Below are positions 1-17,703 of a stretch of 17,703 nucleotides of DNA, in pieces. Both the position numbers and the translations under genes were made by a program. How positions within the stretch are numbered: the stretch's first letter is position 1; each line of letters begins with the position of its first letter. A model generated the notes under the pieces. The model was given only the letters and a program-made list of their open reading frames with translations. It was not told the DNA's origin and did no database searches. This DNA is from Candidatus Bathyarchaeota archaeon (GTDB lineage: Archaea > Thermoproteota > Bathyarchaeia > Bathyarchaeales > Bathycorpusculaceae). The DNA lies in assembly GCA_963777155.1 (NCBI GenBank), contig CAVZPM010000026.1, positions 1 to 17,703 on the forward strand. The letters run 5' to 3'.

Positions 1-1769
1 TTGATTTTATTCGCAGACGCGTCTCCGTGGTCGTTGAACGCAAAGGCCAAAGATACTTCATAGCCAAAGGAGCCCCCGAAGAAATTCTCAAGGTTTGCTC
101 TTACTATGAACGAAACAAACTGGTAGCAGACCTTAGTGAGGAAACACGCAAGAAAATCGAGCAAAAATATCATGATTATAGCGCGGAGGGACTTAGAGTT
201 TTAGGTGTTGCCTACAAACGTCTCAAAGTAGACAAAGCAGTTTACTCAATAAATGATGAAAACGATATGGTTTTTCTAGGTTTTGTGGCTTTCCTTGACC
301 CTCCAAAAGAAACCGCAAAACAATCGCTTCAGCTACTAGGTAAAGCAGGGATTGAACTGAAAATCCTCACAGGTGACAACGAGTTAGTAACAAGAAAAGT
401 CTGCGAGGAACTCGGGTTTGAAGTAAAAGGTGTAGCTCTTGGCAACGACATCGGCAACATGCCTGACGAAACATTGATGGTAATCGTTGAAGAAGCAAAC
501 GTCTTCTGCCGCGTCAACCCAATTCAAAAGGACCGCATAATCACCCTACTAAAGAAGAACGGACACGTCGTCGGCTACATGGGTGACGGCATAAACGATG
601 CTCCCTCACTAAAAACCAGTGACGTAGGCGTATCGGTGGACAATGCCGTTGATGTTGCAAGAGAATCCGCCGACATAATCCTATCCAGAAACGACTTAAC
701 CGTCTTAGCGGAAGGTGTCTTGGAAGGTAGAAAAACCTTTGGCAACACAATGAAATACATCCAGCTAGGCGTCAGCTCAAACTTCGGCAACATGTTCAGT
801 GTCGCTGGCGCAGCTATTTTTCTGCCTTTTTTGCCTATGCTGCCAGTCCAAATCCTTCTAAACAACTTGCTTTATGATATGTCACAATCCACTATCACAA
901 CTGACAGAGTGGATGAAGAATACGTTGAGAGACCGAAACGATGGGACATTGCATTCATACGACGCTTTATGGTGTCTCTTGGTCCAGTAAGTTCGCTATT
1001 TGACTTTTTGACTTTCTTTACTATGCTCTTTGTTTTCATCCCGATTGTACCTCTAGCCATAATATCCATTCAACAGCAGCATCTATTCCAAACAGCTTGG
1101 TTCATCGAATCCTTATGTTCACAAATTCTAGTCGTCTTTGTTATCCGAACTAGACGAACACCTTTCTGGAAGAGCAGACCAAGCAAATACTTATTGGCCA
1201 GCAGCTTAACAATAGTTTCCTTCGCATTAATAGTGCCATTTACCCCGTTAGGTGAAGTATTTGGATTTGTGGCACCTCCACCGCTATTCTATGCAATCTT
1301 GGCAATACTTCTAGGAGCATACTTGTTACTTGCTGAAGTAGTAAAAACCTGGTTCTACAAACGGAATGCCTACCGCCTTGAACAGGTATTGGTACCAAAA
1401 AGAACCTTCTATATAACCAGAACGGCAAAGTTGATGCAGGACATGATAGCAACCTTAAGCCTTCAAGTTGATGATGAATTTACAATAGAAGCCCTAACGG
1501 ATGACTTGAACAGCGTCATAACCTACCCAATTAACTCGAATCAGATGGCACGCAATCTTCAGTACCTTAGACGTTCAGGTTTAATCAGCGTAGACTGGAA
1601 CAAACGAACCATAAAACGTCAGAAAGCATTAGGTGACTACGTTAAGAAAAGCATTATCGGTGGACCTATTTGGCTAAACATCAGGGAAGATTGGCAGAAA
1701 ATACATAACATCCTCCTAAACAAACATGGAGCAGTTAACATTGAGTACCAACAATTACTGGTTAAATGA
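1..1769 (+). CDS. mgtA: Mg2+-transporting P-type ATPase (MgtA/MgtB family), 5'-truncated by window edge, with ~130-aa C-terminal extension
   Basis: Frame open from base 3 (DFIRRRVSV, like the MgtA FDFxRRRMSV motif). Contains KGAPEE, FLDPPK, LTGDN, GDGINDAPSL, SSNFGNMFS, PFLPMLPVQILLNNLLYD and FQTAWFIES. Confidence 0.92.
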   Translation, partial: DFIRRRVSVVVERKGQRYFIAKGAPEEILKVCSYYERNKLVADLSEETRKKIEQKYHDYSAEGLRVLGVAYKRLKVDKAVYSINDENDMVFLGFVAFLDPPKETAKQSLQLLGKAGIELKILTGDNELVTRKVCEELGFEVKGVALGNDIGNMPDETLMVIVEEANVFCRVNPIQKDRIITLLKKNGHVVGYMGDGINDAPSLKTSDVGVSVDNAVDVARESADIILSRNDLTVLAEGVLEGRKTFGNTMKYIQLGVSSNFGNMFSVAGAAIFLPFLPMLPVQILLNNLLYDMSQSTITTDRVDEEYVERPKRWDIAFIRRFMVSLGPVSSLFDFLTFFTMLFVFIPIVPLAIISIQQQHLFQTAWFIESLCSQILVVFVIRTRRTPFWKSRPSKYLLASSLTIVSFALIVPFTPLGEVFGFVAPPPLFYAILAILLGAYLLLAEVVKTWFYKRNAYRLEQVLVPKRTFYITRTAKLMQDMIATLSLQVDDEFTIEALTDDLNSVITYPINSNQMARNLQYLRRSGLISVDWNKRTIKRQKALGDYVKKSIIGGPIWLNIREDWQKIHNILLNKHGAVNIEYQQLLVK

Positions 1770-14799: not shown

Positions 14800-14876
14800 G
14801 GCCGGGGTGGTGTAGCTTGGCAGCATAGAGGCCTGTGGAGCCTTTCGCCCGAGTTCAAATCTCGGCCCCGGCCCCA
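14800..14876 (+). tRNA. tRNA-His (GTG), intronless, with encoded G-1, C73 and CCA
   Basis: Acceptor GCCGGGG/CCCCGGC (14801-07/14866-72); anticodon arm GAGGC-CTGTGGA-GCCTT (GTG at 14835-37); T arm CCGAG-TTCAAAT-CTCGG. Confidence 0.97.
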
Positions 14877-14889
14877 CCAAAAATGGGTT

Positions 14890-15453
14890 TTAGTAATGTT
14901 TTTCTATTCCACCAAAACCAATCTGCTTGTTTTTCTCAGTTAATTTGATAAGATTATTGAGACGTTTTTTAAATTCCTCTGGGCGGTTGCGTGCACCCTC
15001 AACGTAAGCGACGCGGATTCTCTGGTATTGAAGCGAAAACTTTTGGAAATTCTCCCACACCATCTTATTGGTTTTAAGGGCTCCTAAAATATCCGAAGGC
15101 ATAACAAAGTCTTCACTTAGGACATCTTGGATTGCTACCTTAACCGATGGTATAACCATGCCTTCCTTGACAAGTTTTCTTAGACGGACTTTGTTGGCTT
15201 CTGAATAGGGGCTCTTGGGGTTGCGGGGAGAGAAACGTTGAGCATAACTGTAATCATCAATGCGTTTAACGGTACTGTCAATCCAGCCAAAACACAGTGC
15301 CTCTTCAACCGCATCATCATAGAGTATACGGGGTTTGCCACTTGCCTTCTTTGGGTATACTAACCAGATTTCTTTTTCCTTGTCATAATTTTCTGCAAGC
15401 CATGTCCGCCAAGTCTGTCTGTCAGTAACATACAGCGTCTTTCCAATATTCAT
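14890..15453 (-). CDS. YdeI/OmpD-associated family protein
   Basis: WRTWLAEN, EIWLVYPKKASG, YDDAVEEALCFGWIDS, QRFSPR, and a C-terminal OmdA-like PSDILGAL...FQKFS...RL segment. Confidence 0.9.
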   Translation of the reverse strand: MNIGKTLYVTDRQTWRTWLAENYDKEKEIWLVYPKKASGKPRILYDDAVEEALCFGWIDSTVKRIDDYSYAQRFSPRNPKSPYSEANKVRLRKLVKEGMVIPSVKVAIQDVLSEDFVMPSDILGALKTNKMVWENFQKFSLQYQRIRVAYVEGARNRPEEFKKRLNNLIKLTEKNKQIGFGGIEKHY

Positions 15454-15573
15454 AAGCTAACCAGAGACATCAATAGTTAATTTTTGCGTTAATTAAATGA
15501 TGCGTTTCATGTTTAAGAGGTATTAACTAGGAAAACTACAACAACATTTAACCAACACCACACATACTTTTAG

Positions 15574-15783
15574 TTGCCTTACCGAAATTGAGCACCCATA
15601 ACGACGGACTCAACAGAGGAACGTAAGAAACACAAATCTTGCACCTATGACGACAGAGTTCTACCCAATTATGGAACAGGTGGGGCAAAGGGCAAAAGTC
15701 CCGCGCCGAGAGAGCTTAGCCAAGCTAAAAGCGACGCTCAGCTATGAGGTTAAGTGTTAGGTTACGTCGGGAGACACCAGCCC
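15574..15783 (+). ncRNA. Two-hairpin structured RNA, copy 1 (H/ACA-like guide candidate)
   Basis: Stems TTGCCTTACC/GGTGGGGCAA, CCATAA/TTATGG, GGACTC/GAGTTC, GTAAGA/TCTTGC, GGGC/GCCC, TCCCG/CGGGA and CTTAGCC/GGTTAAG. K-turn CAGA/ATGACGA; ACA at 15676 and 15774; TTTAA 27 nt upstream. Confidence 0.72.
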
Positions 15784-15865
15784 AAAAAATAAAATGCTTT
15801 GTTTTAATGTAGCCGTATGGAATCCAAACCATGTGACTAAATAGTTGTGAATTTGTATCCAAGTG

Positions 15866-15883
15866 AGTAAATTCTTAAATTCC
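15866..15883 (+). promoter_or_regulatory. Putative BRE/TATA of tyrS (copy 1)
   Basis: AGTAAATTCTTAAATTCC is identical to 16798-16815 within otherwise unalignable spacer DNA, ~40 nt before TTG. Confidence 0.55.
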
Positions 15884-15922
15884 TATTCATTATTAGGCTA
15901 TCAACAACTGAGTTGAAGCCGC

Positions 15923-16090
15923 TTGGACATAGAAAAGAAGATTGAACTTATTTGCAGACCGCCCACAGAAGAGGTCGTCACACCAGAGGATTTGCGTCAG
16001 CTATTCGAAAAAGAAGAACACCCAATCGCCTACAACGGCTGGGAACCATCCGGGTTAGCACATCTGGGAACGGGCGTTATCTGCGCTTAT
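15923..16090 (+). pseudogene. tyrS: Truncated 5' fragment (56 codons) of tyrosyl-tRNA synthetase
   Basis: 53/56 aa identical to the N-terminus at 16856, then runs into antisense ydeI sequence and stops at 16150. Confidence 0.9.
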
Positions 16091-16420
16091 ATCTTGGATT
16101 GCTACCTTAACCGATGGTATAACCATGCCTTCCTTGACAAGTTTTCTTAGGCGGACTTTGTTGGCTTCTGAATATGGGGTCTTGGGGTTGCGGGGAGAGA
16201 AACGTTGAGCATAACTGTAATCATCAATGCGTTTAACGGTACTGTCAATCCAGCCAAAACACAGCGCCTCTTCAACAGCATCATCATAGAGTATGCGGGG
16301 TTTGCCACTTGCCTTCTTTGGGTATACTAACCAGATTTCTTTCTCTTTGTCATAATTTTCTGCAAGCCATGCCCGCCAGGTTTGTCTGTCAGTAACATAG
16401 AGCTTCTTTCCAACATTCAT
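16091..16420 (-). pseudogene. 3'-truncated second copy of the ydeI-like gene (110 codons)
   Basis: About 14 differences in 330 nt versus 15124-15453 (hand count); lacks the OmdA-like C-terminal domain. Confidence 0.9.
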
Positions 16421-16540
16421 ATGCTAACCCGACGTCAATAAAGTTAATTTTTGCTTTAATTAAATGATGCGTTTCATGTTTTAGAGTTATTAATTAACAA
16501 AACTACAACAACATTTAACCAACACCGCACATATTTTTAG

Positions 16541-16752
16541 TTGCCTTACCGAAATTGAGCACCCATAACGACGGACCCGACAGAGGAAAGGCAAGCCCAA
16601 CAAAACTTGCTCCCATGACGAACGGGTTCTACCCAATTATGGAACAGGTGAGACACGGGCGAAAAAAAAATCCCATCAAGCTTAACCTAGCTTAAAGCGA
16701 CGCTTAGCTGTGCGGTTAAGTGTTCCAGTTCTAGTGGGAGACAAACAGCCCG
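16541..16752 (+). ncRNA. Two-hairpin structured RNA, copy 2
   Basis: Same fold as copy 1: GGACCCG/CGGGTTC, GCAAG/CTTGC, CGGGC/GCCCG, TCCCAT/GTGGGA and CTTAACC/GGTTAAG. ACA at 16644 and 16741. Confidence 0.7.
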
Positions 16753-16797
16753 TAAAAAGATTTTTGACATAACATGTTCTCATTCCGTCGGCTGACT

Positions 16798-16815
16798 AGT
16801 AAATTCTTAAATTCC
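16798..16815 (+). promoter_or_regulatory. Putative BRE/TATA of tyrS (copy 2)
   Basis: AGTAAATTCTTAAATTCC conserved between the duplicated units. Confidence 0.55.
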
Positions 16816-16855
16816 CAGTTCCTATTAGGCTATGAAGAATTGGGCTGTGACTGAC

Positions 16856-17703
16856 TTGGATTTAGAGAAAAAGATTGAGCTCATCTGCCGACCGCCAACG
16901 GAAGAAGTTATAACACCAGAGGATTTGCGCATGCTTTTCGAGAAGGAAGAGCATCCCATCGCGTATAATGGTTGGGAGCCTTCTGGCTTAGCTCATTTGG
17001 GAACAGGGGTTATTTGCGCTTACAAAATGAAGGATTTCGCTGAGGCAGGCGTGCATTTTAAAGCGTTTTTGGCAACATGGCATGCATGGTTAAACAACAA
17101 GTTAGGCGGCGACCGCGCACTTATCCGCAAAGCTGCAGACCTATTCCGCCACTCATGGCTCTCACTAGGTGTTCCCGGCGACAAAGTGGAATTCATCTAT
17201 TCCGACGAGCTCTACAAAGACATTGATTATTGGGCAAAAACCGTGATAATTTCTAAAAACCTCACTTTAGCCCGAACCACGCGCACTTTGGAAATCGCTG
17301 GCAGAAAAGAGGGAGAAGCACATTACGTCTCTGATTACCTTTACACACCCATGCAGGTCGCTGACATTTTTGAGATGAAAGTAAAGATTTGCCAACTCGG
17401 CATGGATCAACGCAAAGCGAACATGGTTGGCCGCGAAATCGGAGAAAAAATCGGCTGTTGGAAACCAGTCTGCGTACATCACCATTTACTGCAGGGTCTA
17501 GCGAAAACCTCGGAATTTGGCCGATTCCCGAAGGACAAGAAAAAGAAGCTGTAGCTTCAGCACAAAATGTCCAAGAGCAAACCAGACACATGCATCTTCA
17601 TCTACGATACACCCGAAGAAATCAAACAAAAAATGAGTAAAGCATTCTGCCCAGAAAGAACCGTAAAATTCAACCCAATAATGGACATCTGTAAATACAT
17701 AGT
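16856..17703 (+). CDS. tyrS: Tyrosyl-tRNA synthetase, archaeal type (indels near 17505-17511 and 17563; runs off window)
   Basis: YNGWEPSGLAHLG (HIGH region), YTPMQVADIF, LGMDQRK, and after correction KMSKSKPD and KAFCP. The TTG start is conserved in both copies. Confidence 0.95.

What the first reader, a model, noticed from the sequence alone, without database searches (positions are those of the whole stretch)
15574..15783. Unannotated ~210-nt two-hairpin RNA supported by covariation between its two copies; H/ACA-like guide architecture
Seen: between ydeI and tyrS both units keep the same fold. Compensatory changes: GGAC[T]C/G[A]GTTC vs GGAC[C]C/G[G]GTTC, and TCCC[G]/[C]GGGA vs TCCC[A]/[T]GGGA. 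Consistent wobble changes: G[T/C]AAG:CTTGC, CTTA[G/A]CC:GGTTAAG, CTTACC:GGTG[G/A]G. G-U pairs imply the + strand, and a conserved TTTAA box sits 27 nt upstream. Hairpin 1 has a lower stem, an internal pocket, an upper stem, a K-turn (CAGA/ATGACGA) and ACA 14 nt from the pocket top. Hairpin 2 also ends in stem-G-ACA. Established: this is the archaeal H/ACA layout. Tentative targets from recalled rRNA consensus: ACGACGG and ACCCA flank 23S UGGGU-UUAGA-CCGUCGU (2586 region), and GAGAGAG and GTTAC flank helix-69 GUAAC-UAUGA-CUCUCUU (1915/1917). Both are known archaeal pseudouridine regions, but the gaps exceed the canonical 2 nt. Unusually, each hairpin plus ACA is enclosed by an extra outer stem.
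Basis: partly seen in the sequence, partly recalled or inferred. Interest (0 to 1): 0.8.

Follow-up and report, generated by a model that had tools for sequence, protein, structure and literature searches.

The report
Clamped two-hairpin H/ACA guide RNA
This gap holds a real, conserved small RNA gene of a Bathyarchaeia archaeon that most likely tells the enzyme Cbf5 which uridines at two key sites of the large ribosomal RNA to turn into pseudouridine; it is a new, oddly clamped example of a known kind of guide RNA.

Summary
Window 15574-15786 (+) encodes a ~210-nt two-hairpin RNA. It folds better than shuffles on the + strand only (z -2.9 against +0.7). It matches no Rfam family.

A covariance model finds it in 137 of 151 genomes of the order and 89 of 151 of the class Bathyarchaeia. 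On 65 sequences, 32 of 49 pairs change on both sides, and 0 of 500 shuffles reach this.

Each hairpin has a lower stem, a pocket, an upper stem with a K-turn-type motif, and an ACA kept in 65 of 65 sequences. An extra outer helix closes each hairpin.

The invariant pocket bases best match two 23S rRNA sites of congeners: the peptidyl-transferase loop (ugggu[UUAGA]ccgucg) and helix 69 (uaac[UCUGA]cucucuc). Haloferax sR-h45, a 210-nt double H/ACA guide, serves these sites in the same hairpin order (PMC7075261).

Metatranscriptome contigs cover only the RNA.

Verdict: an H/ACA pseudouridylation guide, a clamped variant of a known kind. The "second copy" lies in a 967-bp repeat unit of doubtful origin, and its hairpin-2 pocket is remodelled. 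This scan had noted the family before on other DNA.

The parts
15547..15551 (+). TTTAA promoter (TATA-like) box, 23-27 nt before the first paired base of the RNA
   Evidence: Read. A TTTAA / ATAAAT-type box stands at the same distance in most of the 31 aligned relatives. Its promoter role is inferred from general knowledge of archaeal promoters and was not tested.
15576..15583 (+). Outer stem S1, 5' strand (GCCUUACC); pairs with 15679-15686
   Evidence: Helix 1: 7 of 8 pairs change on both sides; 88.8-91.2% of cells are paired.
15584..15594 (+). 11-nt linker between S1 and hairpin 1, opposite the ACA; its 3' part GAGCA is conserved only within the main group of the genus
   Evidence: Alignments. 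Function unknown.
15595..15601 (+). Hairpin 1 lower stem P1, 5' strand (CCCAUAA); pairs with 15669-15675
   Evidence: Helix 2: 5-6 of 7 pairs change on both sides (for example A-U 25 against G-C 39 at one pair).
15602..15607 (+). Hairpin 1 5' guide (CGAC plus GG, the two bottom bases of the upper stem); complementary to 23S ccgucg
   Evidence: GACGGA is invariant in 65 of 65 sequences. Target scan.
15606..15611 (+). Hairpin 1 upper stem P2, 5' strand (GGACUC); pairs with 15656-15661 (GAGUUC)
Evidence: Helix 3 (U-A 24 against C-G 32 at one pair).
15614..15619 (+). Hairpin 1 K-turn, non-bulged strand (CAGA, then GG of the C-stem)
   Evidence: G15616 in 63 of 65 and A15617 in 65 of 65 sequences. 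GG pairs with CC 15644-15645 (helix 4; both pairs change on both sides).
15623..15642 (+). Hairpin 1 apical stem-loop (GUAAG ... CUUGC)
   Evidence: Helix 5: 3-5 of 5 pairs change on both sides.
15646..15652 (+). Hairpin 1 K-turn, bulged strand (UAU bulge, then GA sheared against GA, then CG)
   Evidence: U15648 in 57 of 65, G15649 in 62 of 65, A15650 in 48 of 65 sequences (the lower counts come from an alignment shift in the divergent group). The strand arrangement is that of archaeal H/ACA K-turns. L7Ae binding was not tested.
15662..15668 (+). Hairpin 1 3' guide (U ACCCA A); ACCCA is complementary to 23S ugggu
   Evidence: ACCCA in 64-65 of 65 sequences. Target scan.
15676..15678 (+). ACA box 1, one nt after P1 and immediately before the S1 3' strand
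   Evidence: A, C and A each in 65 of 65 sequences. [quoted passage not shown]
15679..15686 (+). Outer stem S1, 3' strand (GGUGGGGC)
   Evidence: Helix 1.
15690..15693 (+). Outer stem S2, 5' strand (GGGC; CGGGC(G) in most relatives); pairs with 15780-15783
   Evidence: Duplex search of linker against tail in 42 sequences: a 4-9 bp helix in all 42. It reads GGGUG/CACCC or CAUCC in two other-family members, against GGGCG/CGCCC elsewhere.
15699..15707 (+). Hairpin 2 lower stem P1, 5' strand (UCCCGCG, plus the CC extension)
   Evidence: Helices 6 and 7. One pair reads C-G 47 / U-A 11 / A-U 3. The CC/GG extension is 99% paired, with double changes in 1-2 sequences.
15708..15714 (+). Hairpin 2 5' guide (GAGAGAG); complementary to 23S cucucuc, 3' of the helix 69 loop
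   Evidence: 63-65 of 65 sequences at the first six positions; the last is G 49 / A 16. Target scan.
15715..15721 (+). Hairpin 2 upper stem P2, 5' strand (CUUAGCC); pairs with 15748-15754 (GGUUAAG)
   Evidence: Helix 8: 3 of 7 pairs change on both sides.
15722..15747 (+). Hairpin 2 K-turn-type motif and apical stem-loop: AA / GCU ... AGC / UAU bulge / GA
   Evidence: A15723, U15745 and G15746 in 65 of 65 sequences. The second sheared position varies (15722: A 43, U 12, G 9, C 1; 15747: A 50, C 15). The five other-family members aligned carry the canonical GA on this strand.
15755..15764 (+). Hairpin 2 3' guide region (U GUUA GG UUA). GUUA is complementary to 23S uaac. GG pairs with CC 15706-15707, leaving UUA as a bulge
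   Evidence: 59-65 of 65 sequences per position.. A stand-alone relative has only UGUUAGC here.
15765..15772 (+). Hairpin 2 lower stem P1, 3' strand (CG U CGGGA, with U15767 bulged)
   Evidence: Helix 6.
15774..15776 (+). ACA box 2, one nt after P1
   Evidence: A and C in 65 of 65 sequences; third position A in 50 of 65, with 8 gaps caused by alignment.
15780..15783 (+). Outer stem S2, 3' strand (GCCC)
16539..16756 (+). Copy B of the RNA in the second repeat unit. Hairpin 1 is intact. The hairpin 2 pocket is remodelled: five bases of the 5' guide are missing and the 3' guide is changed
   Evidence: 194.6 bits against model R1. Alignments. Its pocket sequence occurs in none of the other 64 sequences.

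Best explanation
Window 15574-15786 (+) is the gene of a box H/ACA guide sRNA with two guide hairpins. It is transcribed on its own from a TTTAA-box promoter.

Inferred mechanism. Each hairpin binds L7Ae at its K-turn. Each binds Cbf5-Nop10-Gar1 at its lower stem and ACA box. Each opens its internal loop to pair with 23S rRNA on both sides of a uridine, which Cbf5 isomerises to pseudouridine.

Hairpin 1 (guides ACCCA and CGACGG) addresses the peptidyl-transferase-centre loop ugggu-UUAGA-ccgucg. That is U2585/U2586 in recalled E. coli numbering, most likely 2586. Hairpin 2 (guides GUUA and GAGAGAG) addresses the helix 69 loop uaac-UCUGA-cucucuc, that is U1915 and probably U1917.

This is the same pair of jobs, in the same 5'-to-3' order, and in an RNA of the same size as Haloferax volcanii sR-h45.

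Shown here: the fold and its covariation; conservation of the guide bases, ACA boxes and K-turn bases; complementarity to real 23S rRNA of congeners; presence of the partner protein genes; presence of the RNA in metatranscriptome assemblies. Inferred: protein binding, pseudouridine formation, which uridine is modified, and the role of the two outer helices. These helices probably act as clamps that protect or pre-organise each module.
For: 1. Fold. z is -2.94 on the + strand only. RNAalifold on a MAFFT alignment recovers all helices. 27 of 49 pairs (42 sequences) and 32 of 49 pairs (65 sequences) change on both sides; 0 of 500 shuffles reach this; slid controls give 6-13.

2. Conservation. Found in 34 of 36 congeners by DNA search. 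By model R1: 137 of 151 genomes of the order (99 of 105 high-quality genomes; all 12 families), 89 of 151 of the class, and only 10 of 131 genomes outside the class in the phylum, all weak and mostly single hairpins.

3. H/ACA hallmarks (65 sequences). ACA 1 is present in 65 of 65. The A and C of ACA 2 are present in 65 of 65. GACGGA is in 65 of 65, ACCCA in 64-65 of 65, GAGAGA in 63-65 of 65. The K-turn G and A bases are in 62-65 of 65.

4. Geometry. Hairpin 1 has a 6-bp upper stem and 13-14 nt from the last target-pairing base to ACA. Functional Pyrococcus guides have 5-6 bp and 14-15 nt (PMC2377435, abstract and section 22). Hairpin 2 has 9 positions from the pocket to the distal G.A pair; the stated norm is 9-10 (PMC7075261, introduction). 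Its spacing is 17-18 nt, like the 17 and 19 of sR-h45 SL2 (PMC7075261, section 12).

5. Targets. The best LSU+SSU match of each pocket is the PTC loop or helix 69. 3 of 300 shuffled guides equal hairpin 1's score.

6. Stand-alone relatives in other classes. A hairpin-1-like 72-nt hairpin has AACCCAA, which pairs with both uridines before the third U; sR-h45 SL1 does the same with its two A's. A hairpin-2-like hairpin has UGUUAGC and a canonical 14-nt spacing.

7. Proteins. Nop10, Gar1 and L7Ae genes are in this MAG. Cbf5 is in 5 of 5 congeners.

8. Expression. In three metatranscriptome runs of two studies, contigs lie only on 15585-15776, with summed word depth up to 1775. Flanking bins read 0-1.

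9. Known counterpart. sR-h45 is 210 nt; SL1 makes Psi2605 and SL2 makes Psi1940 and Psi1942; SL2 leaves UNUN unpaired (PMC7075261, abstract and sections 3, 6-8, 12, 19 read).
Against: - Both predicted duplexes leave 5 target bases unpaired (7 for hairpin 1 if the two bottom pairs of its upper stem stay closed), against the canonical 2.
- Hairpin 2's complementarity score alone is not unusual: 28 of 300 shuffled guides reach it. The scan settings (2-5 unpaired bases, one skipped guide base) were chosen after the candidate sites were seen.
- Hairpin 1's distal G.A pair lies 12 positions above the pocket, against the usual 9-10. It is 10 only if the GG opens.
- In this genus the hairpin 2 K-turn has A.A or C.A instead of A.G at the second sheared pair.
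- ACA 1 is not in a free tail. It lies in an internal loop, directly followed by the outer helix.
- No Cbf5 gene was found in this MAG (the weak hits are PUA-domain proteins and a Pus10-like protein). The MAG is 90.6% complete and also lacks both rRNA genes. In one congener cbf5 lies 2 kb from the 23S gene.
- The rRNA used is from congeners, not from this genome.
- The model-fitted alignments lean towards the structure they were fitted to.
- The metatranscriptome evidence comes from contigs at 90% likeness or more, so it pools relatives and gives no reliable ends. A DNA run also shows raised depth on this conserved stretch, about 17 times its flanks.
- No pseudouridine data exist for any Bathyarchaeia rRNA that I could find (0 papers).
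Confidence: 0.85

Rival explanations
1. It is an H/ACA-type RNP that binds these two rRNA sites without modifying them, acting as a folding or assembly chaperone in the manner recalled for eukaryotic snR30/U17. Alternatively, its true substrates are other RNAs.
For: Both predicted duplexes leave 5 target bases unpaired instead of 2. Hairpin 2's match is not significant by score alone (28 of 300). An alternative pairing of hairpin 1 would pair every pocket base and bulge only UU, away from the junction (my reading).
Against: sR-h45 SL2 modifies two uridines with 4 unpaired target bases and 17/19-nt spacing (PMC7075261, sections 8 and 12). Pyrococcus guides work with UNN unpaired (PMC2377435, abstract). 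Stand-alone relatives of both hairpins have canonical geometry at the same sites. The two sites are known, conserved pseudouridine sites (PMC7075261 discussion passage; PMC2377435 section 26).
Confidence: 0.08
2. It is a cis-acting leader of tyrS, an archaeal counterpart of a T-box or riboswitch that controls the tyrosyl-tRNA synthetase gene downstream.
For: It lies on the same strand about 135 nt upstream of a tyrS start. tyrS lies within 1.5 kb of the RNA in 30 of 54 related loci.
Against: 24 of 54 related loci show no tyrS within reach; some of these are cut short by contig ends. In L005 the RNA points away from tyrS. It has its own TTTAA box. Metatranscriptome contigs cover the RNA but not tyrS. 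The invariant bases are the pocket strands and the ACA boxes, not a tRNA-binding or terminator/antiterminator layout.
Confidence: 0.03
3. It is a structured RNA of another class (another L7Ae/K-turn RNP, or a stable RNA of unknown function), and its resemblance to H/ACA guides is superficial.
For: No Rfam family matches even at E up to 10. The enclosing outer helices are not part of the described H/ACA layout. No Cbf5 gene was found in this MAG.
Against: The resemblance has many parts and all are conserved: stem-pocket-stem twice, ACA twice at the right place, K-turn strands in the right orientation, guide bases invariant and complementary to two known pseudouridine sites, and single-hairpin relatives with the canonical H/ACA form.
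Confidence: 0.04

Closest known systems
[quoted passage not shown]
   Same: - About 210 nt with two guide hairpins.
- The 5' hairpin addresses the loop between helices 90 and 93 (Psi2605). The 3' hairpin addresses the helix 69 loop (Psi1940 and Psi1942).
- K-turns with G:A pairs lie in both upper stems.
- The helix 69 hairpin is atypical in the same two ways: more than two unpaired target bases, and a long ACA spacing (17 and 19 nt there, 17-18 nt here).
- It is a stand-alone intergenic gene.
   Different: - sR-h45 has a 56-nt linker and an H box (AUAGCUA) after SL1. Here a plain ACA follows hairpin 1 and the linker is about 20 nt.
- No outer closing helices are described for sR-h45.
- sR-h45 SL1 pairs canonically (two A's pair with the two uridines before the target). 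Here this genus has U in place of one of these A's, and 5 target bases stay unpaired.
- The hosts belong to different archaeal phyla.
Pyrococcus/Thermococcales box H/ACA sRNAs (Pab21, Pab35, Pab40, Pab91, Pab105, Pab160; Rfam Hgc families; PMC2377435)
   Same: Archaeal one- to three-hairpin guides with a K-turn or K-loop, an ANA box, a 5-6 bp upper helix and 14-15 nt ACA spacing. One motif can guide more than one site. One of the two conserved helix 69 pseudouridines is present in P. abyssi.
   Different: No Rfam family matches this RNA even at E up to 10. The hairpin content and targets differ, and those RNAs have no outer clamps. The names of the individual Pab RNAs and of the Rfam families are recalled, apart from those in the sections I read.
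Eukaryotic snR191 / U19 (helix 69 guides) as cited in PMC7075261
   Same: A single pocket guides the two alternate helix 69 uridines.
   Different: These are eukaryotic hairpin-hinge-hairpin-tail snoRNAs with Nhp2 instead of L7Ae and no K-turn. I saw only the discussion passage of PMC7075261.

Membership tests
Archaeal box H/ACA guide sRNA | Hairpin made of lower stem, internal loop (pocket) and upper stem | tested here: met
   Both hairpins: helices 2, 3, 6 and 8 have changes on both sides at 2-6 pairs each. Overall 32 of 49 pairs; 0 of 500 shuffles reach this.
Archaeal box H/ACA guide sRNA | ACA (ANA) trinucleotide directly 3' of the lower stem | tested here: met
   ACA 1 is present in 65 of 65 sequences, one nt after P1. 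ACA 2: A and C in 65 of 65, third A in 50 of 65 plus 8 alignment gaps, one nt after P1. Unusually, ACA 1 is followed at once by the outer helix.
Archaeal box H/ACA guide sRNA | K-turn or K-loop with tandem sheared G.A pairs in the upper stem, bulged strand on the 3' side | tested here: inconclusive
   By sequence alone. Hairpin 1 has GA (63 and 65 of 65) opposite UGA (57, 62 and 48 of 65). Hairpin 2 has the first G.A pair in 65 of 65, but the second position is A.A or C.A in this genus; the five other-family members aligned carry canonical GA. Neither the three-dimensional kink nor L7Ae binding was tested.
Archaeal box H/ACA guide sRNA | Distance from ACA to target uridine of about 15 nt (14-15 in Pyrococcus; 15 +/- 1 in general) | tested here: inconclusive
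   Hairpin 1: 13-14 nt between the last target-pairing base and ACA, which meets the rule. Hairpin 2: 17-18 nt in linear count, which does not meet it but resembles sR-h45 SL2 (17 and 19). It is 14 if the UUA bulge and U15767 are left out of the helix (helix 7; PMC7075261 section 12; PMC2377435 section 22).
Archaeal box H/ACA guide sRNA | Upper helix of 5-6 bp, or 9-10 positions from pocket to the distal G.A pair | tested here: inconclusive
   Hairpin 1: 6-bp helix (meets the Pyrococcus measure) but 12 positions to the distal G.A, or 10 if the bottom GG opens. Hairpin 2: 7 bp and 9 positions (coordinates; papers as above).
Archaeal box H/ACA guide sRNA | Both pocket strands complementary to a target RNA on either side of an unpaired uridine | tested here: met
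   Against congeners' 23S rRNA: ugggu[UUAGA]ccgucg (5+6 bp; 3 of 300 shuffled guides score as high) and uaac[UCUGA]cucucuc (4+7 bp; 28 of 300). Five target bases are unpaired, not two. The rRNA of this MAG itself is not assembled.
Archaeal box H/ACA guide sRNA | Host encodes Cbf5, Nop10, Gar1 and L7Ae | tested here: inconclusive
   Nop10 (80.6 bits), Gar1 (32.6 bits) and L7Ae (100.5 bits) score over their cut-offs in this MAG. Cbf5 was not found here but is in 5 of 5 congeners at 430-448 bits. The MAG is 90.6% complete.
Archaeal box H/ACA guide sRNA | Guide-dependent pseudouridine formation at the predicted site | not testable with these tools
   Needs pseudouridine mapping or in vitro reconstitution.
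sR-h45 family (Haloferax) | Two hairpins in the order PTC-loop guide, then helix 69 guide, in one RNA of about 200 nt | tested here: met
   with PMC7075261 (abstract and section 6; the gene spans 210 nt according to the methods passage seen).
sR-h45 family (Haloferax) | Sequence or profile homology to sR-h45 itself | not testable with these tools
   The sR-h45 sequence appears only in a figure of the paper. No Haloferax genome handle was available for a model search.
Any Rfam 15 family | Score at or above the family's gathering threshold | tested here: not met
   The only gathering hit in the window is a tRNA at 14801-14873. On 15400-15950 at E up to 10 there are two chance-level hits outside the RNA.

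The most novel reading that the evidence does not exclude
The two covarying outer helices make this a distinct, class-wide 'clamped' form of H/ACA RNP. In it the ACA box sits in an internal loop rather than in a free tail. Each widened pocket, with five unpaired target bases, isomerises two uridines (U1915+U1917 and U2585+U2586), so that one RNA would place four pseudouridines in the ribosome's active centre. The clamps might also serve as processing or circularisation signals. Abundant RNA fragment ends at 15585 and about 15713 would then be maturation sites rather than breakage at loops.
Probability: 0.15. Interest if true: 0.6.

Novelty: new variant of a known kind. Interest (0 to 1): 0.45.

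Why it matters
- It gives Bathyarchaeia, an abundant and mostly uncultured sediment and soil lineage, its first well-supported guide RNA family. The family comes with a covariance model that finds one copy in most genomes, and no Rfam entry covers it. The only literature check was one search (Bathyarchae + pseudouridine + guide RNA) in the open-access library held here; it found 0 papers.
- One RNA that serves helix 69 and the peptidyl-transferase loop, in the same order, now appears both in a halophilic euryarchaeon and in a Thermoproteota class. This suggests either an old linkage or convergence, and it predicts pseudouridines at these sites in Bathyarchaeia ribosomes.
- The outer clamps and the wide target loops offer natural test cases for the 'atypical pseudouridylation' rules worked out on sR-h45.
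- For annotation, the RNA is a reliable marker that should be masked from ORF calling.

Tried and rejected
- Rfam at gathering and at E up to 10: nothing relevant.
- Own-genome rRNA for target pairing: neither the 23S nor the 16S gene is assembled, so congeners' rRNA was used.
- Guide-target covariation. Of five other-family genomes, only two had the helix 69 region assembled. Both differ from the genus at most by one C/U that the guide G tolerates, so the test was uninformative.
The 5' side varies without compensation while the 3' side stays fixed. It is replaced by CCCAUAA/UUAUGGA.
This is less likely than the GUUA next to the upper stem, because a stand-alone relative lacks GUUAC.
The bases do not fit: the bulge would be 6 nt and the second pair A.C. 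Rejected by inspection.
- A pairing between AGCAC (15591-15595) and GUGUU (15754-15758). It is absent from the divergent group and is treated as chance.
- First motif counts by regular expression were wrong, because ACCCAA also occurs in the upper stem of some relatives. They were replaced by column counts.
- Confirming the 967-bp repeat with reads. No run held more than 0.24 of the sampled words, and no contig bridged the junction at 16090/16091. The bins of copy B's altered hairpin 2 had no cover. This shows nothing either way.
- A new target for copy B's hairpin 2. The best match is a weak 16S site (score 23), which is not convincing.
- Search of earlier scan notes by sequence: nothing found.
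Full report
**What is there**

The window is a whole 17.7-kb contig of a 2.29-Mb archaeal MAG. Between a ydeI/OmdA-family gene (14890-15453, minus strand) and a tyrS start lies a stretch of about 210 nt. Its + strand folds at -62.6 kcal/mol (z -2.94; 0 of 200 shuffles fold as well). Its - strand does not stand out (z +0.73). Rfam finds only a tRNA at 14801-14873 in the window. On the RNA itself it finds nothing, even at E up to 10.

**The two copies**

A 967-bp unit (15124-16090) is repeated at 16091-17057. The repeat, however, is not a plain duplication.

- The truncated tyrS piece of unit A differs from the full tyrS of unit B at 37 of 168 bases. Of the codons that differ, 32 are synonymous and 3 are not.
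- The ydeI piece differs at only 14 of 330 bases.

So the two units diverged as working genes in different lineages. They were then joined either by recombination with DNA of a relative or by a chimeric assembly. Reads could not settle this. Copy B keeps hairpin 1 but has a remodelled hairpin 2 pocket.

**Relatives and structure**

A DNA search found the RNA in 34 of 36 congeners. A MAFFT alignment of 31 sequences with RNAalifold gave a consensus fold in which 16 of 43 pairs show compensatory change. From this alignment and a curated structure I built covariance model R1 (219 positions, 49 pairs).

| Alignment fitted to R1 | Cells paired | Pairs changed on both sides | Shuffles reaching this | Slid controls |
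|---|---|---|---|---|
| 42 sequences | 94.6% | 27 of 49 | 0 of 500 | 6-8 pairs |
| 65 sequences | 92.8% | 32 of 49 | 0 of 500 | 6-13 pairs |

These alignments lean towards the model. The independent RNAalifold result points the same way.

R1 finds full-length matches as follows.

- Order: 137 of 151 genomes (99 of 105 high-quality genomes; all 12 families), almost always one copy per genome.
- Class: 89 of 151 genomes.
- Rest of the phylum: 10 of 131 genomes, all weak.

A pattern scan of species-representative genomes named the lineage. 74 of the 80 listed record titles are Bathyarchaeia or Bathyarchaeota. This pattern was built from hairpin 1 features, so it says nothing about how well those features are conserved.

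**Anatomy (copy A)**

- TTTAA box: 15547-15551.
- Outer stem S1: 15576-15583 with 15679-15686.
- Hairpin 1:
  - lower stem CCCAUAA / UUAUGGA (15595-15601 with 15669-15675)
  - 5' guide CGAC(GG)
  - upper stem GGACUC / GAGUUC
  - K-turn: CAGA opposite a UAU bulge followed by GACG
  - apical stem GUAAG / CUUGC
  - 3' guide U-ACCCA-A
  - one A, then ACA (15676-15678), which abuts the S1 3' strand
- Linker with the S2 5' strand GGGC (15690-15693).
- Hairpin 2:
  - lower stem UCCCGCG / CG(U)CGGGA, extended by CC/GG with a UUA bulge
  - 5' guide GAGAGAG
  - upper stem CUUAGCC / GGUUAAG
  - K-turn-type motif: AA opposite a UAU bulge followed by GA
  - small apical hairpin
  - 3' guide U-GUUA
  - G, then ACA (15774-15776)
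- S2 3' strand GCCC (15780-15783).

Column counts over 65 sequences:

| Element | Conservation |
|---|---|
| GACGGA | 65 of 65 |
| ACCCA | 64-65 of 65 |
| ACA 1 | 65 of 65 |
| GAGAGA | 63-65 of 65 |
| UGUUAGGUUAC | 59-65 of 65 per position |
| A and C of ACA 2 | 65 of 65 |
| First sheared G.A pair of hairpin 2 | 65 of 65 |

So the most constrained bases are the pocket strands, the ACA boxes and the K-turn cores. The stems vary with compensation. This is the signature of a guide RNA.

The outer stems are real. In S1, 7 of 8 pairs change on both sides. For S2, a 4-9 bp helix forms in all 42 sequences examined, with GGGUG/CACCC in place of GGGCG/CGCCC in two other-family members.

**Targets**

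This MAG has neither rRNA gene assembled. I therefore took 23S and 16S rRNA from five congeners. In these the two genes are unlinked. All five congeners read GCUGGGUUUAGACCGUCGUG in the peptidyl-transferase loop region and GGGAGUAACUCUGACUCUCUCAAGG at helix 69.

A scan for bipartite complementarity gave, as the best hit of each pocket in LSU plus SSU:

- hairpin 1: ugggu[UUAGA]ccgucg
- hairpin 2: uaac[UCUGA]cucucuc

With a strict hairpin 1 pocket, the PTC site was the only hit with 9 or more bp. Shuffled guides reach the observed score in 3 of 300 trials for hairpin 1 and in 28 of 300 for hairpin 2. I set the scan settings after seeing the sites. The stronger argument is therefore that both best hits fall on the two places served by one known RNA.

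**Comparison with what is known**

Haloferax volcanii sR-h45 is a 210-nt double stem-loop H/ACA RNA. Its SL1 makes Psi2605, in the loop between helices 90 and 93. Its SL2 makes Psi1940 and Psi1942 in helix 69. SL2 is atypical: UNUN stays unpaired, it needs the ACA box, and its ACA spacing is 17 and 19 nt (PMC7075261: abstract, introduction, sections 6-8, 12 and 19, and passages found). I recall from memory that these sites correspond to E. coli 2586, 1915 and 1917.

The RNA here has the same size, the same order of hairpins and the same kind of atypical helix 69 hairpin (17-18 nt linear spacing). If the UUA bulge and U15767 are left out of the extended lower stem, the helical count becomes 14.

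Rules from Pyrococcus call for an upper helix of 5-6 bp and a spacing of 14-15 nt, and they tolerate UNN unpaired (PMC2377435: abstract and sections 22, 26, 28). Hairpin 1 fits these rules.

Single-hairpin relatives in other classes of the phylum clarify the registers.

- A 72-nt hairpin-1-like RNA has AACCCAA. Its two A's pair with the two uridines before the third U, as the two A's of sR-h45 SL1 do. This points to the third U (E. coli 2586) as the target.
- A hairpin-2-like RNA has UGUUAGC followed directly by the lower stem. This gives the canonical 14-nt spacing, with GUUA as the guide.

**Supporting context**

- Nop10, Gar1 and L7Ae genes are in this MAG.
- Cbf5 was not found here. It is present in 5 of 5 congeners, in one of them 2 kb from the 23S gene, which is also missing from this MAG. 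An assembly gap is the likeliest reason.
- tyrS lies near the RNA in 30 of 54 related loci. In L005 the RNA points the other way. The RNA is therefore its own unit and not a tyrS leader.
- In three metatranscriptome runs from two studies, contigs lie only on 15585-15776, with summed word depth up to 1775. Flanking bins are at 0-1. In a DNA run the same stretch exceeds its flanks about 17-fold. These are contigs of relatives at 90% likeness or more, so they show presence in RNA libraries, not levels or true ends.

**Points against, and open points**

- Five target bases stay unpaired in both duplexes, or seven for hairpin 1 if its bottom two pairs stay shut.
- Hairpin 1's K-turn lies 12 positions above the pocket rather than 9-10.
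- In this genus the hairpin 2 K-turn has a non-G.A second pair.
- ACA 1 is boxed in by S1.
- No pseudouridine data exist for this lineage, and one literature search found nothing on it.
- Homology to sR-h45, as opposed to convergence, could not be tested.

**Verdict**

This is an H/ACA pseudouridylation guide RNA gene (confidence about 0.85). Its target assignment is probable (about 0.7) but unproven.

It is a clamped, class-wide variant of a known kind, absent from Rfam. The same family was already noted by this scan on other DNA (e1-2082722, e1-5291107). I checked their main claims here independently.

Noticed in passing
window 15124-16090 and 16091-17057: A 967-bp tandem repeat whose identity falls from 96% (ydeI part) to 79% (tyrS part). 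The truncated tyrS piece in unit A differs from the full tyrS at 37 of 168 bases; 32 codon differences are synonymous and 3 are not. The units therefore diverged as working genes. Either DNA of a relative recombined in, or the contig is a chimera of two populations.
   Followed up: partly
window 16680-16745 (copy B, hairpin 2): Copy B keeps the hairpin, the K-turn-type motif and the ACA. It lacks five bases of the 5' guide and has a changed 3' guide. No other of the 64 aligned sequences has this pocket. It is either a decaying spare or a guide with a new, unidentified target; the best rRNA match is weak.
   Followed up: partly
G000 whole genome; relatives G001, G003, G014, G030, G035: This MAG lacks 16S rRNA, 23S rRNA and cbf5. 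In five congeners the 16S and 23S genes lie far apart (unlinked), and in G001 cbf5 ends about 2 kb before the 23S gene.
   Followed up: partly
window 15585, 15603, about 15713, 15735, 15755: In metatranscriptome contigs, sequencing-adapter sequence abuts the RNA at these places (table 7). All of them fall in predicted single-stranded parts: the 5' linker, both pockets and the apical loop. This fits breakage or processing at loops. Depth over hairpin 1 plus the linker is 10-25 times that over hairpin 2.
   Followed up: no
L005 (G022:C1), RNA at 1534-1754 (+): Here tyrS lies upstream and divergent, and ydeI lies downstream. The RNA gene is thus inverted relative to its neighbours when compared with the window.
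   Followed up: no
L053 (G004:C22), about 253-385: A second, partial copy in one congener. It carries the 3' half of hairpin 2 with its guide and ACA but has no hairpin 1 (27 bits).
   Followed up: no
L212-L216 and L217 (other classes of the phylum): Stand-alone 72-nt hairpin-1-like H/ACA hairpins, and one hairpin-2-like hairpin with canonical spacing. In one search, 7 of the 8 searched genomes of one family outside the class (f45) had a weak match, most of them covering hairpin 1 only. The two modules thus occur separately outside Bathyarchaeia.
   Followed up: partly
window 14801-14873 (+): A tRNA gene (Rfam, 53.8 bits), overlapped by a spurious minus-strand ORF.
   Followed up: no
G000:C9:63801-65144 (+): A 447-residue protein with Cys-rich motifs that gives a weak partial match to the Cbf5 model. 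By eye it looks like the archaeal pseudouridine synthase Pus10. No family search was run on it.
   Followed up: no
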